64,000 nt of DNA, taken from the NCBI RefSeq assembly GCF_030013595.1, contig NZ_CP122768.1, one strand, 5' to 3'. Position 1 is the first letter of the stretch, and the number at the start of each line of letters is the position of its first letter. This DNA is from Escherichia coli. GTDB taxonomy: Bacteria > Pseudomonadota > Gammaproteobacteria > Enterobacterales > Enterobacteriaceae. Shown one piece after another: positions 6,001 to 18,000 of the stretch. A program made the position numbers.

Positions 6001-9000
6001 CATGACACACCAGTAAAACCCCTGATGGCTGCAACGGTGCTGCATGCGCTGGATGTCCATCTCTGCTTGCTGACAGTTTTTTACGTCGGTGGGCCATTGT
6101 GTGACAACCACAGTGCTGTAACAGCAGCCTGCCTGTTTTACCTCACCCCCATTCCAGATTTTTAACTGAACCGCCATTCACACCCTGACCACGCTGCCCG
6201 TACCGGGACGGTTGCTGCCTGCGTGTCGTCTGGCGGCTGAGGAATATGACGATGTACGCAAAATCTTTTCTCGCATTCGATGGCAACGGACGCCTGACCG
6301 GTGCCCGTACTGCACAGACAGCGCCTTACGATCGATACACCTGTCACCTTTGCGGCAGTGCGCTCAGATACCACCCGCAATACGATACCGAACGTCCCTG
6401 GTTTGAACACACTGGCGAAGGGCTGGCTGAGCACGGTCATGAGTGCCCTTATGTCAGACCGGAGCGCAGAGAAATACTGTTGATTAAACGCTTACAGCAA
6501 TGGGTACCGGATGCCTTACCCGTGGTGCGTAAAACCAGCTGGCACTGCAGACAATGTCACCACGATTATTATGGGGAGCAGTACTGCACACACTGTCATA
6601 CAGGGCGTTTCAGTGAGGAGGCAGTGGCAGGATGAACGGTCTAAAAACGGGGCTGGGGATCACGCCAGGTGAGCACATTATCAGTGCCGATTCTGCGCTC
6701 AGCAGAAATATCAGGCATTGTTTCTGCCTTTCCTGTCGTGGTCGGTTGATTTTGCAGACAGATGCTCAGGGGGCGTGGTTTGAGCATGATTTACATGCCC
6801 TGACCGCGCAACAGAAGACGGCCTGTGTGGTGCTGAATCCGGAAAAATCCCATCCTTACATTGATGATATGGCGATGTTTTTATCGCCATTACCTGTCGT
6901 GCTGGAGTGGCATTGTGTGATGTGCGGGCAGCATTTTCCCGGGAAAAAGTTCTGTGAAGCCTGTGGCACGGGGATCTATTCCAGAGCGGTATGTACAAAG
7001 TATGTTTACAGCTACCAGCCAGACTTGTTCCAGGACTGTGGAAGTGCGAGCACTTAATCCGAAATGCCTGGTCTGCGCAGGGCGTTCAATCCAACTCGAC
7101 GAACATCTTCCAGTGTTGAATTAGCTGATAGCTCCTCCATTTTTTGTAAAGAACAGTTATACAGGCTTATTTGAACAGCTCTCTTTTTATTCAAACACAG
7201 CCAACAATACTCAGATGTAAGTATTTTTATATTCATGAATGGAGAGGCAAGGTCTGATGAATTTAATTACAGAACGTTCTTGAGCCATTGTCCTCTCCAG
7301 TTCATTAAAATAGTTACTACGTTAATTCACACCCAGCGCCTTATAAACAGCATCAACCGGGTCTGAGTAAAAACTCACCTGAAACTTGGTAAATAACTCT
7401 GCCGGAACCGTTGGAATATCCATAGCCGAGGACATCGGCAACAGAACCCGTTTTGCACCGCTGTCGAAGGCGAGCTGTAAACTGGCGGCAAGATCCTGCA
7501 CCGGGTTAATTACCCCACCAAGCGTCATACTGCCCAACACCACCATCTGTTCCTGCACCGGTTTTGCCAGCAATATCGAACATAAAGCGATAAGCGCAGC
7601 AAGACTGGTTGCGGTGCTTGGGCCAGTATTATGCAGTTCAACGACATGAAGGTGATATTCATGATCGGAGAATTTCGCGGCCGCGCTTACCCGATTCAAA
7701 TTGCCTTTGAAGTAATCGAAACCGACGCGGATAGCTTCTTTCGCGGAGGTATTTGAACCCAGACCCGATACACTATGCTTACCATTACCGGCAGTCATCT
7801 GTGTTTCAAAACGATACAGCCCGGTCATGCCGCTTTCTGCCTGAGTGACCAGATGCACAACACCCGGCTTTGGCATTCCGGCAGGAATAAGTTCGCTGCC
7901 GCCCTGTTCCGGTACGCTCACAAAAAACTCTTCCAGCGTTTCGTTGTCGATGTAGCTAAAGTTCACATCGAAGAACTCCAGACCGCCCAGTTTTTTAAGT
8001 TGCTCTTTCACGCGGCGACGAACTTCCATCGCATAGGTCAGGCAGACTCGCACATCTTCTTTGCTGTACGCGCCATCGGGATGCATGAGTTTTAACAACC
8101 CCGACACGGTACGTCGAACGGCAATAACGTCACGCTGGTTGAGGTTGTTACCCAGCTTAAAGAATTTATCAATCGCATCAGAGAAACTGCGTTTGCGCAT
8201 TTCGCGCATATATTCAGCGAGATAATCCGTAATCAGCCCGTAACGGTTGGTAAAAAATTCCGGGCGCATTTTGGGGATTTCCCAACCGGGAATATAGGCA
8301 TGAAAGCGGTCGAAAAATGCAGTATCAATCATCGCAGCCGGAAATGGCGCCAGCAAATGGCTGGTTTTAACGAGAGTCTCTACGCTTTGATTGATGTTGC
8401 CGACGAAAACCATCGACGCTTTACCTTCAATCGAATCTCTGCCGCGAGAGAAAGATCCTGACGCCATGTAATCTTTCATGATTTGCACGCCGTCTTTATC
8501 TTTGAAAGTGATCCCCGCGACTTCGTCGAACGCTACCACATCCCACATGCCAACCAGGCCGATCTGGCGACTGGCCATGTTGTAGAACAGGTTGGCAACG
8601 GTCGTTTGCCCGCCAGAAACTAACAGGGAGTTAGGAGAACACTCTTTATACACATGGCTTTTACCGGTGCCACGCGGCCCCAGCTCGCAAACGTTATAGT
8701 TGTTCTCCACGAACGGGATCATACGGGTGATAAGGTGCCATTTGGTGCGTTGCTCAATATTGGCGGGCTCCATACCCACTGAGCGCAGCAGCACATCGAT
8801 CCACTGATCACGGTTAAAGTGTTTACGCGCATCGAACACTTCTTCCATATCCATATTCGGCATCTGGATAGGCTTAAGCGTCATCAATGAGAAGGGCGAA
8901 GTCTTCTGCCCTTCTTCAAAGAAATAGTTGACGGTAATCATGCACCAGATACCGCCCGTTAGTAGCTTCTCGTTGTCTTTAACCATCTGCGAGGGCACCA

Positions 9001-15000: not shown

Positions 15001-18000
15001 GGGCCAGTAACCCGCACCTTTTCGGGGAGGGATAAGCGCGCTGATTTTCTTACGCCGCAGTTCATCGTGACATAGCCGGGTATCGTAAGCGCCATCGGCG
15101 GCGGCTGACCTGATTTTCCGGTGGGTTTGCCGGATTAACCCGGGGAAGGCCTCTGAGTCCGTAACGTTGTTCAGCGACAGGTCAGCGCAGATGATTTCAT
15201 GTGTTTTACTGTCAACGGCGAGATGCAGCTTACGCCAGATACGGCGGCGTTCCTGGCCATGCTTTTTGACTTTCCACTCGCCTTCACCGAAGACCTTCAG
15301 CCCGGTGGAATCAATTACCAGGTGTGCGATTTCACCCCGGGTGGGCGTTTTGAAACTGACATTAACCGACTTTGCCCGCCTGCTGACACAGCTGTAATCC
15401 GGGCAGCGTAGCGGAACGTTCATCAGAGAAAAAATGGAATCAATAAAGCCCTGCGCAGCCCGCAGGGTCAGCCGGAATACGCGTTTAATCACCAGAACGG
15501 TGGTGATGGCGAGATCAGAATAGCGCTGGGGCCTTCCTCGTGATGAAGGCGTTGCCGACTCATACCAGGCCTGAATCGCTTCATCATCCAGCCAGAAAGT
15601 GAGGGAGCCACGGTTGATGAGAGCTTTGTTGTAGGTGGACCAGTTGGTGATTCTGAACTTTTGCTTTGCCACGGAATGGTCTGTGTTGTCGGGAGGATGC
15701 GTGATCTGATCCTTCAACTCAGCAAAAGTTCGATTTATTCAACAAAGCCCCCCCAAACTGTCAGTCCATGCATCTTTCGTCCCTGGTGTGTTACATGAAC
15801 ACACGTCACTTTTATCTCCTGGCAGAATAAACAAATTTTACAGGTTTTTTCTTCCCCGGGATTCAGCCTCACTCCCTGCTTGCTCAGCAACCATCTGCTG
15901 TTGTTGCCGGGTATGACTGTCTGCATGGCATGCATTTGTTGTATCTGTGCTGACTGAATACGATAAAAATTTCTGGTTAATGACGATCGATATCATCTAT
16001 CGATTCGATCGATTTTATTCAATTGAGACTATCGCATGGCGGGTTTTAAAATGCACTGAGTACTGCTTGCAGCAACGGAGCAATAACGGAGATAATTGAA
16101 ATGAAAAAGGTTTTTGCTGTTTCAGTGGTGGCCGCAGCCTGTGTATTTGCAGCAAATGCAGGTGCTGAGGAAGGTAAAAGCGGTTTTTATCTGACCGGTA
16201 AAGCCGGTGCCTCTGTGGTGTCACTTTCAGACCAGCGTTTCCTGTCAGGAGATGAGGAAGAAACGTCAAAGTATAAAGGCGGCGATGACCATGATACGGT
16301 ATTCAGTGGCGGTATTGCGGCCGGTTATGATTTTTATCCGCAGTTCAGTATTCCGGTTCGTACAGAACTGGAGTTTTACGCGCGTGGAAAAGCTGATTCG
16401 AAGTATAACGTAGATAAAGACAGCTGGTCAGGTGGTTACTGGCGTGATGACCTGAAGAATGAAGTGTCAGTCAACACTCTGATGCTGAATACGTACTATG
16501 ACTTCCGGAACGACAGTGCATTCACACCATGGGTATCCGCAGGGATTGGTTACGCCAGAATTCATCAGAAAACAACTGGTATCAGTACTTGGGATTACGG
16601 GTACGGGTACAGTGGGCGTGAGTCGTTGTCACACTCAGACTCTGCTGACAACTTTGCATGGAGCCTTGGGGCTGGTGTCCGTTATGACGTAACCCCGGAT
16701 ATCGCTCTTGACCTCAGCTATCGCTATATTGATGCAGGTGACAGCAGTGTGAGTTACAAGGATGAGTGGGGCGATAAATATAAATCAGAGGTTGATGTTA
16801 AAAGTCATGACATCATGCTTGGTGTGACTTATAACTTCTGACGAAACTGCTCCTGAAAGATAATAATTACTTATCTTCTGTAATTAAAAGGAAACACCCT
16901 GCAGTAATTATACTGCAGGGTTGTCTGTTATCTGTTTTACAGATAATTTCTGATTTTTATTATCCTGTTCTCTTCATAATAATATTGTCGATATACTCCG
17001 ATGAATATCAGAAAACTGTTTTGTCCGGGCGACACACCCCGGATTTTATTGTTTTTATTCTTTTTTGTTATTTCTGTGATAATCACAATTGCATGCGGAT
17101 ACACTGAGAAGAATGCCACAGGAAATGTGCTGCTTCTGTTTCTCCTTCTTCTCCTTGCACACAGAAATACCCTCACATCCATTACAACGCTGTTATTTCT
17201 GTTCTGTTGTGCACTGTATGCGCCTGCGGGTATGACGTACGGTAAAATCAACAACAGTTTTATTGTCGCGTTGCTGCAGACCACGGCTGATGAGGCTGCA
17301 GAGTTTACCGGGATGATTCCTGTTTATCATTTTCTGGTCAGTGCCGCGATTCTGGTATTCATGGTGATTTTCTGGCGGACACACCACCGCGGTCACCGTA
17401 ACTGGCTGGCACTGCTGCTGTTCGTATTATGCTCTGTAAACAGCTGGCCGTTGCGGATGGTTAAAGGAATTGTTGTGGGAACAACTGACACATTGCGTGA
17501 AATGCAGCGTTATAAACAACTGAGTCAGCACGGGGCTGACAACTGGAAAATCCTGCCGGGAACACCGTTGTATGACTCGATTGTTATCGTTACTGGTGAG
17601 AGTGTGCGCAGGGATTATATGTCGGTATATGGCTATCCCGTGCCAACCACACCATGGCTGAATACGGCTCCCGGTTTATTTATTGACGGCTATACATCGG
17701 CAGCAGCCAGTACCGTACCTTCCCTGAGCCGGACACTGATTTATGACTATGAGCAGAACCCTGACTCCGGCAACAACGTGGTGGCGCTGGCAGCAAAAGC
17801 AGGATACAGCACATGGTGGATATCCAATCAGGGAAAACTGGGAGAGCATGACACACGCATCTCTGTTATTGCTTCTGATGCGGAGCATACCGTTTTCCTC
17901 AAGAAAGGCAGCTTCGCTTCCCGTAAAACGGATGACATGTTGTTGTTACAGGAAACAGAACGTGCGCTGGCGGATAAATCCTCGCCGAAGGTGATTTTCC

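What the first reader, a model, noticed from the sequence alone, without database searches (positions are those of the whole stretch)
7322..15749. Orphaned type 1 BREX tail (pglX'-pglZ-brxL) with brxA/brxB/brxC absent and pglX cut by an IS
A canonical type 1 BREX locus is brxA-brxB-brxC-pglX-pglZ-brxL. Here only the last three are present, and the pglX frame starts 4 bp from the left end of an IS903-group element, so its N-terminal region and everything upstream are missing. The locus is presumably non-functional as BREX, yet pglZ and brxL are intact full-length frames, so they may still be expressed or act in another context.
Basis: partly seen in the sequence, partly recalled or inferred. 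Interest (0 to 1): 0.6.

Follow-up and report, generated by a model that had tools for sequence, protein, structure and literature searches.

The report
Half-deleted BREX phage-defence locus
This is the leftover half of a well-known six-gene phage-defence system (type 1 BREX) in an E. coli genomic island; a deletion anchored on a resident insertion sequence removed the other half, an ordinary kind of gene decay.

Summary
On the minus strand lie full-length brxL (7322-9406) and pglZ (9417-12020). Next comes a pglX fragment (12191-14692) covering residues 382-1214 of a 1214-residue PglX. It abuts a 1057-bp IS903B (14693-15749). No brxA, brxB or brxC occurs in the 64-kb window.

The region is a tRNA-Phe (pheV) island of an E. 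coli-type chromosome. E. coli B1, HZ13 and 30COLEC carry the same island with all six BREX genes. They have the same IS903B at the same right-hand junction, about 11 kb beyond pglX. So the IS probably did not insert into pglX. A one-sided deletion of about 11.2 kb, anchored on the resident IS, fused its left end to pglX. There is no target-site duplication. An IS903-group element at this junction has at least 11 different left flanks across strains.

The PglX fragment lacks the N-terminal domain and the SAM-binding motif I, and the essential brxB and brxC are gone. BREX methylation and defence should therefore be lost. pglZ and brxL show no damage, which fits a recent event. Whether they are expressed is untested.

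Verdict: a real feature, correctly read, and ordinary IS-mediated decay of a known system. Interest is low.

The parts
7322..9406 (-). brxL, full length (694 aa), Lon-related AAA+ BREX protein
   Evidence: TIGR02653 1343 bits and PADLOC BrxL 1168 bits. It differs at one residue from each of three comparator BrxL proteins (PI12, CDE2901, B1), at a different position each time, so the window copy carries no private change. It aligns to solved BrxL 8emc over residues 22-693.
9417..12020 (-). pglZ (BREX-1 PglZ type A), full length; longest ORF 867 codons, homologues annotated as 865 aa (start at 12014)
   Evidence: TIGR02687 1260 bits, 1-844/844. 98.6% identical to the PglZ of an intact locus. Two residues are private relative to three E. 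coli comparators, R493 and N812. Each also occurs in a solved PglZ: R in 9zn5_B and N in 9nv3_C. There is no sign of decay.
12021..12190 (-). Intact 170-bp pglX-pglZ intergenic region, a candidate site for the pglZ-brxL promoter
   Evidence: The sequence lies inside the alignment blocks shared with intact loci. By eye there is a TGnTAAAAT extended -10-like element at 12097-12089, but the consensus scan found no promoter here. In Salmonella, pglZ-brxL is a separate transcript, and the region upstream of E. coli HS brxZ was suggested to be its promoter (PMC9009780). Promoter function here is inferred, not shown.
12191..14692 (-). pglX' pseudogene fragment: residues 382-1214 of PglX. It keeps the methyltransferase-domain insert, NPPY motif IV, the recognition domain and the C-terminal domain. 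It lacks the N-terminal domain and motif I.
   Evidence: tblastn places residues 382-1214 at 99.0% identity. NF033452 matches at model positions 404-1210/1210. Solved structures align from residue 382/383 to the end. NPPY is at fragment residue 128, and motif I (VLDPACGSG) lies in the missing part. Pfam Eco57I matches only from model position 41. No Shine-Dalgarno-like sequence precedes the GTG at 14689, by my reading of the upstream bases. The frame is closed by a stop 25 codons into the IS.
14693..15749 (-). IS903B (IS5 family, IS903 group), 1057 bp. The transposase (14749-15717) is transcribed in the same direction as pglX'-pglZ-brxL. The left end is the deletion junction.
   Evidence: Terminal inverted repeats and length. 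NF033579 358 bits. 1056/1057 identical to the IS903B of B1, HZ13, 30COLEC and E89. The flanking 9-mers ACGCACATC and CCCCCAAAC differ, so there is no target-site duplication. The right junction is shared by 17 complete E. coli genomes and the left junction by none of 5,426.
16101..20360 (.). Integrase-proximal end of the island: outer-membrane protein gene (16101-16841, +), phosphoethanolamine transferase gene (17001-18500, +), tyrosine integrase gene (18822-20087, -), tRNA-Phe (20285-20360, -; pheV by its yqgA/speC neighbours)
   Evidence: tRNA-Phe found by ARAGORN. Family matches. 99.6% identity over window 14693-22261 to E. coli B1, where these genes are annotated.

Best explanation
The locus is the remnant of a complete type 1 BREX system (brxA-brxB-brxC-pglX-pglZ-brxL) carried on a tRNA-Phe (pheV) integrative island of an E. 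coli-type chromosome.

**How it arose.** In the ancestral island, still seen intact in E. coli B1, HZ13 and 30COLEC, an IS903B sits between an IS1 and an outer-membrane-protein gene, about 11 kb beyond pglX. A one-sided deletion anchored on the left end of that resident IS removed about 11.2 kb. The most likely route is an IS903 'adjacent deletion', that is, intramolecular replicative transposition into pglX with loss of the excised circle. The lost segment held:
- IS1;
- a DUF2254 gene remnant;
- a BCCT transporter gene;
- a hypothetical gene;
- brxA, brxB and brxC;
- the first 1,143 bp of pglX.

The IS end was left fused to codon 382 of pglX.

**Consequences (inferred from published genetics and structure).**
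- BREX methylation and phage exclusion are abolished. BrxB and BrxC are gone, and the PglX fragment has lost its N-terminal domain and the SAM-binding half of its methyltransferase fold.
- pglZ and brxL are undamaged, most simply because the event is recent.
- They may still be transcribed from their own intergenic promoter or by read-through from the co-oriented IS903B transposase gene. No function on their own is known.
For: **Identity of the parts.**

**Ancestral configuration.**
- E. coli B1 aligns to the window on both sides of the junction: L003 7758-16489 to window 4207-12938 at 98.8%, and L003 29433-37001 to window 14693-22261 at 99.6%.
- B1 carries brxL-pglZ-pglX-brxC-brxB-brxA-hyp-BCCT-DUF2254'-IS1-IS903B-OMP-PEtN transferase-int-tRNA-Phe. 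The interval L003 18272-29432 (11,161 bp) is missing from the window.
- HZ13 and 30COLEC have the same arrangement from brxC rightwards.

**The IS is resident, not newly inserted.**
- The right junction is present in 17 complete genomes, 8 of them at 100% identity over 400 bp.
- The left junction is present in 0 of 5,426 genomes.
- There is no 9-bp target-site duplication.
- The IS is 1056/1057 identical to B1's copy.

**This IS site repeatedly loses or swaps its left flank.** I found at least 11 different left flanks in 13 inspected genomes plus the window:
- intact BREX;
- pglX';
- ytfJ';
- glcA;
- spt';
- an island regulator gene;
- a yadA-like gene;
- a hypothetical gene;
- a transposase fragment next to a Gp2-type gene;
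- IS3';
- ettA'.

Adjacent deletions are reported as common for IS903 and as a frequent cause of missing duplications (PMC11708052).

**Loss of function.**
- Deleting brxB, brxC, brxX or brxZ abolishes both methylation and defence in E. coli HS BREX (PMC6326788).
- A BrxBCXZ complex is required (PMC11842806).
- Motif I and the SAM and adenine contacts I239, T243, Q244, L245 and I355 lie upstream of residue 382.

**pglZ and brxL are intact.**

**Separate pglZ-brxL transcript in Salmonella.** PMC9009780.
Against: - The true ancestor of this strain is not available, so the B1-type arrangement is inferred by comparison.
- Adjacent deletion cannot be told apart from insertion of a second IS903B in pglX followed by IS-IS recombination. 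Both give the same product.
- The window's IS has one rare base (T at IS position 25, an exact match in only 4 of 1,716 records). It could be a trace of a second copy.
- Only 64 kb of the genome is visible, so a second BREX locus or a re-inserted brxABC segment elsewhere cannot be excluded.
- Expression of pglZ-brxL, loss of methylation and loss of defence are all inferred, not measured. The consensus scan found no promoter in the pglX-pglZ gap.
Confidence: 0.85

Rival explanations
1. Two-step route. A second IS903B copy first inserted into pglX at codon 382, in the same orientation as the resident copy. RecA-dependent recombination between the two copies then deleted the 11 kb between them, leaving one IS.
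For: - It gives exactly the observed product: a single IS, no target-site duplication, and the ancestral right junction.
- The window's IS carries a rare variant base near its left end (position 25 T, found in 4 of 1,716 records with this IS end). It could come from a different donor copy.
- IS903B is abundant in E. coli: 1,281 of 5,426 genomes, median 2 copies.
- Recombination between IS copies is a recognised cause of missing duplications (PMC11708052).
Against: - No genome among the 5,426 has the intermediate, an IS903B in pglX at this position.
- It needs two events rather than one.
- Three strains with three different left flanks share one identical IS sequence at this junction. That is more simply explained by serial one-ended deletions.
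- A single base difference may equally be a new mutation.
Confidence: 0.3
2. Assembly artefact. The genome really has two IS903B copies, one in pglX and one next to the outer-membrane-protein gene. The assembler collapsed them and dropped the intervening brxABC segment into another contig.
For: - The junction coincides exactly with a 1,057-bp repeat that exists in many copies in E. coli genomes.
- The junction is unique among 5,426 complete genomes.
- I have no read-level data.
Against: - Repeats usually break assemblies rather than create clean deletions.
- The window is 64 kb of otherwise collinear sequence.
- Comparable one-sided deletions at the same IS occur in many independently finished genomes.
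- Even in this case pglX would still be disrupted.
Confidence: 0.05
3. Simple IS903B insertion into pglX, with the rest of pglX and brxC/B/A lying just beyond the IS.
For: None beyond the position of the IS against the pglX frame.
Against: - The sequence to the right of the IS is the outer-membrane-protein gene, the phosphoethanolamine transferase gene, the integrase gene and tRNA-Phe.
- There are no tblastn hits for PglX residues 1-381, BrxC, BrxB or BrxA anywhere in the window.
- The flanking 9-mers differ.
Confidence: 0.01
4. The retained genes are kept by selection as a working unit. pglZ-brxL, perhaps with the PglX C-terminal fragment, would act as a methylation-independent defence or regulatory module.
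For: - Both ORFs are full length with no damaging changes.
- A second E. coli strain, PI12, independently retains pglX'-pglZ-brxL after an IS1-associated truncation. Its pglZ-brxL DNA is 99.9% identical to the window's.
- PglZ alone is a metal-dependent nuclease in vitro (PMC12205998).
- A BrxL C-terminal fragment altered host and prophage transcription in Salmonella (PMC9009780).
Against: - Near-identity to genes of intact loci is what a recent deletion predicts, with no need for selection.
- About 310 complete genomes carry pglZ-brxL and about 309 carry brxABC, so orphan tails look rare. These are unpaired totals, not a per-genome comparison.
- Retention of the tail follows from geometry: the IS elements lie on the brxA side, so one-sided deletions eat the locus from brxA inward.
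- Individually expressed BrxZ gave no phage protection, and over-expressed BrxL alone was toxic (PMC6326788).
Confidence: 0.06

Closest known systems
Type 1 BREX of E. coli HS (brxA-brxB-brxC-brxX/pglX-brxZ/pglZ-brxL) and its close E. coli relatives (for example strains CDE2901-yvys and B1)
   Same: - pglZ, brxL and the retained part of pglX are 98.6-99.9% identical in protein to those of an intact E. coli locus.
- Gene order, spacing and the pglX-pglZ intergenic region are the same.
- They match the solved BrxX, PglZ and BrxL structures.
   Different: - brxA, brxB, brxC and PglX residues 1-381 are missing.
- By the published deletion genetics (PMC6326788), such a locus neither methylates nor defends.
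IS903 / IS903B adjacent deletions (one-ended, IS-anchored deletions without target-site duplication)
   Same: - A complete 1,057-bp IS903B is retained.
- One junction is conserved and the other is novel.
- There is no 9-bp duplication.
- Several strains share the same fixed end with different left flanks, some reaching into or beyond the island.
   Different: The event itself was not observed. Recombination between two IS copies gives the same product and is not excluded.
E. coli PI12 pheU island (pglX'-pglZ-brxL next to IS1)
   Same: It is also an orphan BREX tail with intact pglZ and brxL. Its pglZ-brxL DNA is 99.9% identical to the window's, and it sits in a related tRNA-Phe island.
   Different: - The IS is different (IS1).
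- The breakpoint is different: 2,733 bp of pglX are retained, against 2,502 bp here.
- The tRNA site is different (pheU).

It is therefore an independent event.

Membership tests
Type 1 BREX system (complete, functional locus) | brxA (DUF1819) present | tested here: not met
   tblastn with BrxA from an intact locus gave no hit in the 64-kb window. The rest of the genome is not visible.
Type 1 BREX system (complete, functional locus) | brxB (DUF1788) present | tested here: not met
   No tblastn hit in the window.
Type 1 BREX system (complete, functional locus) | brxC (P-loop ATPase) present | tested here: not met
   No tblastn hit in the window.
Type 1 BREX system (complete, functional locus) | Full-length PglX/BrxX methyltransferase (N-terminal, methyltransferase, recognition and C-terminal domains; motif I plus motif IV) | tested here: not met
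   Only residues 382-1214 are present. NPPY is retained, but motif I and the N-terminal domain are absent.
Type 1 BREX system (complete, functional locus) | PglZ type A present and full length | tested here: met
   TIGR02687 1260 bits, 1-844/844. Aligns end to end with solved PglZ 9nv3_C.
Type 1 BREX system (complete, functional locus) | BrxL present and full length | tested here: met
   TIGR02653 1343 bits, 2-675/675. Matches solved BrxL 8emc.
Type 1 BREX system (complete, functional locus) | BREX-motif N6-adenine methylation of host DNA and phage exclusion | not testable with these tools
   This needs a methylome and phage assays. Loss is predicted from PMC6326788 and PMC11842806.
IS903B (IS5 family, IS903 group) | Element of about 1,057 bp with 18-bp terminal inverted repeats GGCTTTGTTGAATAAATC | tested here: met
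   14693-15749 is 1,057 bp and both ends are present.
IS903B (IS5 family, IS903 group) | Single IS5-family DDE transposase ORF | tested here: met
   NF033579 358 bits, 1-289/289. The element is 1056/1057 identical to copies annotated IS903B.
IS903B (IS5 family, IS903 group) | 9-bp target-site duplication flanking a simple insertion | tested here: not met
   The flanks are ACGCACATC and CCCCCAAAC. Absence is expected after an adjacent deletion or IS-IS recombination. It argues against a simple insertion, not against the identity of the IS.
tRNA-Phe (pheV) integrative genomic island | Tyrosine integrase next to a tRNA-Phe gene, with accessory cargo on the far side of the integrase | tested here: met
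   tRNA-Phe at 20285-20360. Integrase at 18822-20087. yqgA/speC neighbours identified by alignment to B1.

The most novel reading that the evidence does not exclude
The orphan pglZ-brxL pair is not just debris. It is still expressed, from its own intergenic promoter or by read-through from the co-oriented IS903B transposase gene. It acts without BrxABC or PglX, for example as a methylation-independent PglZ nuclease plus BrxL DNA-ring module that affects phage, plasmid or prophage DNA. Independent orphan tails (this window and E. coli PI12) would then reflect retention by selection.
Probability: 0.05. Interest if true: 0.55.

Novelty: already known. Interest (0 to 1): 0.12.

Why it matters
It matters little beyond annotation.

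- **Annotation.** Defence-system callers that count PglZ, BrxL and a PglX hit may score this strain as BREX-positive. It should be scored BREX-negative or as a remnant.
- **Hotspot.** One IS903-group element, fixed beside the integrase-proximal cargo of a tRNA-associated island, has a different left flank in at least 11 configurations across strains. Several of these lack the BREX locus or extend into genes outside the island. It is a natural rearrangement hotspot that repeatedly removes or swaps defence and cargo genes.
- **If pglZ-brxL had a function of their own.** That would bear on the still unresolved BREX effector mechanism. Nothing here points that way.

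Tried and rejected
1. **Simple insertion with the rest of the locus behind the IS.** Rejected. The right flank is the outer-membrane-protein gene, the phosphoethanolamine transferase gene, the integrase gene and tRNA-Phe, and there is no duplication.
2. **The 832-codon frame as a complete short methyltransferase.** The top PADLOC hit is named 'type IIG REase-MTase'. Rejected, because that hit also starts at model position 378 of 1205. The frame is 99% identical to the C-terminal 833 residues of a PglX from an intact locus, and motif I is missing.
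3. **Displaced brxA/B/C inside the window.** None found.
4. **Finding the source genome through the 41-bp junction.** There was no match in 100,044 species-representative genomes, so the rest of the genome could not be examined. I ran no further search on this.
5. **Promoter and terminator scan of 7000-16100.** It gave fewer promoter-like sites than shuffled controls (6 against 11.4) and none in the pglX-pglZ gap, so it is uninformative. The extended -10-like TGATAAAAT at 12097-12089 is only my reading of the sequence.
6. **Signs of decay in PglZ.** Two residues differ from all three E. coli comparators (R493, N812), but each occurs in a solved PglZ, so they are not evidence of decay.
7. **The rare base at IS position 25 as a way to choose between adjacent deletion and IS-IS recombination.** Inconclusive.
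8. **Frequency of orphan tails.** The counts (about 310 genomes with pglZ-brxL, about 309 with brxABC) are unpaired totals. They only show that orphan tails are uncommon.

Full report
**1.

The minus strand of window 7322-15749 carries four consecutive ORFs.

- **7322-9406 (694 aa) is BrxL.** It scores 1343 bits against TIGR02653 (cut-off 628) and 1168 bits against PADLOC BrxL.
- **9417-12020 is PglZ type A over its whole length.** It scores 1260 bits against TIGR02687, model positions 1-844/844.
- **12191-14689 (832 codons) is a partial PglX.** It matches the BREX-1 PglX model only from position 404 of 1210 (918 bits). It matches the best PADLOC model only from position 378 of 1205.
- **14749-15717 is an IS5-family transposase.** It scores 358 bits against NF033579.

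Reading the DNA shows a 1,057-bp element at 14693-15749 with the IS903 terminal repeats GGCTTTGTTGAATAAATC. It is 1056/1057 identical to copies that RefSeq annotates as IS903B.

tblastn with the six proteins of an intact E. coli locus (strain CDE2901-yvys) gave the following:

| Protein | Residues matched | Identity |
|---|---|---|
| BrxL | 1-694 | 99.9% |
| PglZ | 1-865 | 98.6% |
| PglX | 382-1214 only (ending at base 14692) | 99.0% |
| BrxA, BrxB, BrxC | no hit in the 64 kb | - |

**2. Where the locus sits**

A tRNA-Phe gene lies at 20285-20360, with a tyrosine integrase gene next to it at 18822-20087. The sequence from 22.3 kb onward is collinear E. coli core chromosome, running from speC and nupG to tkt, at 97-98.3% identity to strain B1. 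The BREX genes therefore lie on a pheV-type integrative island of an E. coli-like chromosome.

**3. How the truncation arose**

E. coli B1 carries the same island and aligns with the window on both sides of the junction.

- L003 7758-16489 aligns to window 4207-12938 at 98.8%.
- L003 29433-37001 aligns to window 14693-22261 at 99.6%.

In B1 the gene order is brxL-pglZ-pglX-brxC-brxB-brxA, a hypothetical gene, a BCCT transporter gene, a DUF2254 remnant, IS1, IS903B, an outer-membrane-protein gene, a phosphoethanolamine transferase gene, the integrase gene and tRNA-Phe. HZ13 (pheV) and 30COLEC (pheU) have the same arrangement from brxC rightwards. The window lacks exactly B1 interval L003 18272-29432, which is 11,161 bp.

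Four findings show that the IS was already resident at this site.

- The IS903B right junction occurs in 17 complete E. coli genomes.
- The pglX'|IS903B junction occurs in none of 5,426. It also has no exact match in 100,044 species-representative genomes.
- The 9-mers flanking the IS differ (ACGCACATC against CCCCCAAAC), so there is no target-site duplication.
- The IS differs from B1's copy by one base.

The IS was therefore already in place next to the outer-membrane-protein gene. A one-sided deletion then joined its left end to pglX codon 382.

I inspected 13 of the genomes that share the right junction. Together with the window they show at least 11 different left flanks:

- intact BREX;
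- pglX' (the window);
- ytfJ';
- glcA;
- spt';
- the far-side island regulator gene;
- a yadA-like gene;
- a hypothetical gene;
- a transposase fragment next to a Gp2-type gene;
- IS3';
- ettA'.

This element is thus a hotspot for one-ended rearrangements. Adjacent deletions are described as common for IS903 and as a usual reason for missing target duplications (PMC11708052).

An alternative gives the same product and cannot be excluded. A second IS903B copy could have inserted into pglX, followed by recombination between the two copies.

- The only hint for it is a rare base (T) at IS position 25, found in 4 of 1,716 records that contain this IS end.
- Some strains carry an isoform of the IS at the same junction. 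Its first 756 bp are about 13% divergent and its last 300 bp are identical. The isoform is the same in three strains that have three different left flanks, which fits serial one-ended deletions better.

**4. What remains and what it can do**

*The PglX fragment.* It aligns to residues 382/383-end of the solved Salmonella PglX and E. coli HS BrxX. In BrxX the N-terminal domain is residues 1-210 and the methyltransferase domain is 211-650. SAM and the flipped adenine contact I239, T243, Q244, L245 and I355. The NPPY motif is at 508-511 (PMC11842806).

In the intact homologue, motif I (VLDPACGSG) lies before residue 382 and NPPY is at 509. The fragment keeps NPPY (its residue 128) but has lost motif I and the N-terminal domain. 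Pfam sees only the distal part of the Eco57I methylase domain, from model position 41.

Translation of the fragment also looks unlikely. The frame is closed by a stop 25 codons inside the IS. The first start codon, the GTG at 14689, has no Shine-Dalgarno-like sequence before it, by my reading of the upstream bases. It is a pseudogene fragment.

*Predicted phenotype.* In E. coli HS BREX, deleting brxB, brxC, brxX or brxZ abolishes both methylation and defence, and deleting brxL abolishes defence only (PMC6326788). A BrxBCXZ complex is required. The locus should therefore be null for both BREX phenotypes. This is an inference from established genetics, not a measurement.

*pglZ and brxL.* Neither shows damage.

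- BrxL differs at one residue from each of three comparators, at a different position each time, so it has no private change.
- PglZ has two private residues, R493 and N812. Each occurs in a solved PglZ.

This is what a recent deletion predicts.

*Possible transcription.*

- The 170-bp pglX-pglZ spacer is intact.
- In Salmonella, pglZ-brxL form a separate transcript. The region upstream of E. coli HS brxZ was proposed as its promoter (PMC9009780).
- The IS903B transposase gene points the same way as pglX'-pglZ-brxL.
- However, the consensus scan found nothing convincing.
- Over-expressed BrxL alone is toxic, and BrxZ alone gives no protection.

Expression and any residual role remain open.

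**5. How common this is**

About 310 complete E. coli genomes hold at least 80% of pglZ-brxL and about 309 hold at least 80% of brxABC. Orphan tails therefore look uncommon, although these totals are unpaired.

One other example turned up. Strain PI12 has pglX' (2,733 bp retained) abutting an IS1 in a pheU island, and its pglZ-brxL DNA is 99.9% identical to the window's. That is an independent event.

The tail is the part that survives for a geometric reason. The IS elements lie on the brxA side, so one-ended deletions consume the locus from brxA inward.

**6. Verdict**

The one refinement is that the IS is a resident element that anchored a deletion, rather than a new insertion into pglX.

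Every component is a known entity: type 1 BREX, IS903B, a tRNA-Phe island and an IS-anchored deletion. The result is routine decay of a defence locus.

- Novelty: already known.
- Interest: low.
- The only reading that would raise interest is an autonomous role for pglZ-brxL. It has no positive support, and I put it at about 5%.

Noticed in passing
window 15550-15949 (IS903B right junction); loci L003-L006, L008-L016: An IS903-group element sits at an identical right junction beside the outer-membrane-protein gene in 17 complete E. coli genomes. Its left flank differs in at least 11 ways: intact BREX, ytfJ', glcA, spt', ettA', a yadA-like gene and others. It is a natural hotspot of one-sided rearrangements.
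   Followed up: yes
loci L004, L009, L010 (IS at about 8145-9200 and 4145-5200): In several strains the IS at this junction is an isoform (transposase WP_000654811.1). Its first 756 bp are about 13% divergent from IS903B and its last 300 bp are identical. The sequence is the same in three strains with three different left flanks. It could be an old IS-IS recombinant or a natural variant.
   Followed up: partly
window 12939-14127 (inside pglX'; G+C falls to 0.34-0.42): The part of pglX that roughly corresponds to the target-recognition domain (by HS BrxX numbering) is AT-rich. It does not align with the B1 allele in the BLASTN comparison, yet it is about 98% identical to the CDE2901-yvys allele. 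Otherwise near-identical BREX loci thus carry swapped specificity cassettes, consistent with the published variability of this domain.
   Followed up: partly
L001 (E. coli PI12) 17192-20677: This is a second, independent orphan BREX tail. Its pglX is truncated (2,733 bp retained) and abuts an IS1A in a pheU island. Its pglZ-brxL DNA is 99.9% identical to the window's.
   Followed up: partly
window 16101-20360; L005 (pheU); L010 and L011 (tRNA-Leu): The same integrase-proximal module (outer-membrane-protein gene, phosphoethanolamine transferase gene, P4-type integrase gene) is found at three different tRNA sites in different strains: pheV, pheU and a tRNA-Leu gene next to ahr. The integrase alleles differ slightly.
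   Followed up: no
window 17001-18500 (+): A 499-aa island-borne phosphoethanolamine transferase has only weak, sub-threshold similarity to CptA, EptA and MCR families (at most 105 bits against cut-offs of 400 or more). Its substrate is unknown.
   Followed up: no
window 14717 (IS903B position 25): The IS has T where B1, HZ13, 30COLEC and E89 have C. An exact 60-bp match to this IS end occurs in only 4 of 1,716 E. coli records that contain it.
   Followed up: partly
window 51708-51755, against L007 29548-37175: Relative to E. coli B1, the window lacks about 7.6 kb between speB and loiP. That segment holds dagR, four PTS genes, dgaE and dagF (the D-glucosaminate operon). Only 46 bp lie there in the window.
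   Followed up: no
window 1346-1348, against L003 2787-4119: B1 has an IS3-family element at this point of the island that is absent from the window. The first about 1.3 kb of the window is only about 92% identical to B1, so the far end of the island is a different variant.
   Followed up: no
window 4686-5039 (+): An Hha-family modulator ORF is listed at 117 aa, but the Hha match covers only residues 51-116. The real start is probably internal (annotated as 213 bp in relatives). It sits with an inovirus Gp2-type gene and two zinc-ribbon genes just beyond brxL.
   Followed up: no
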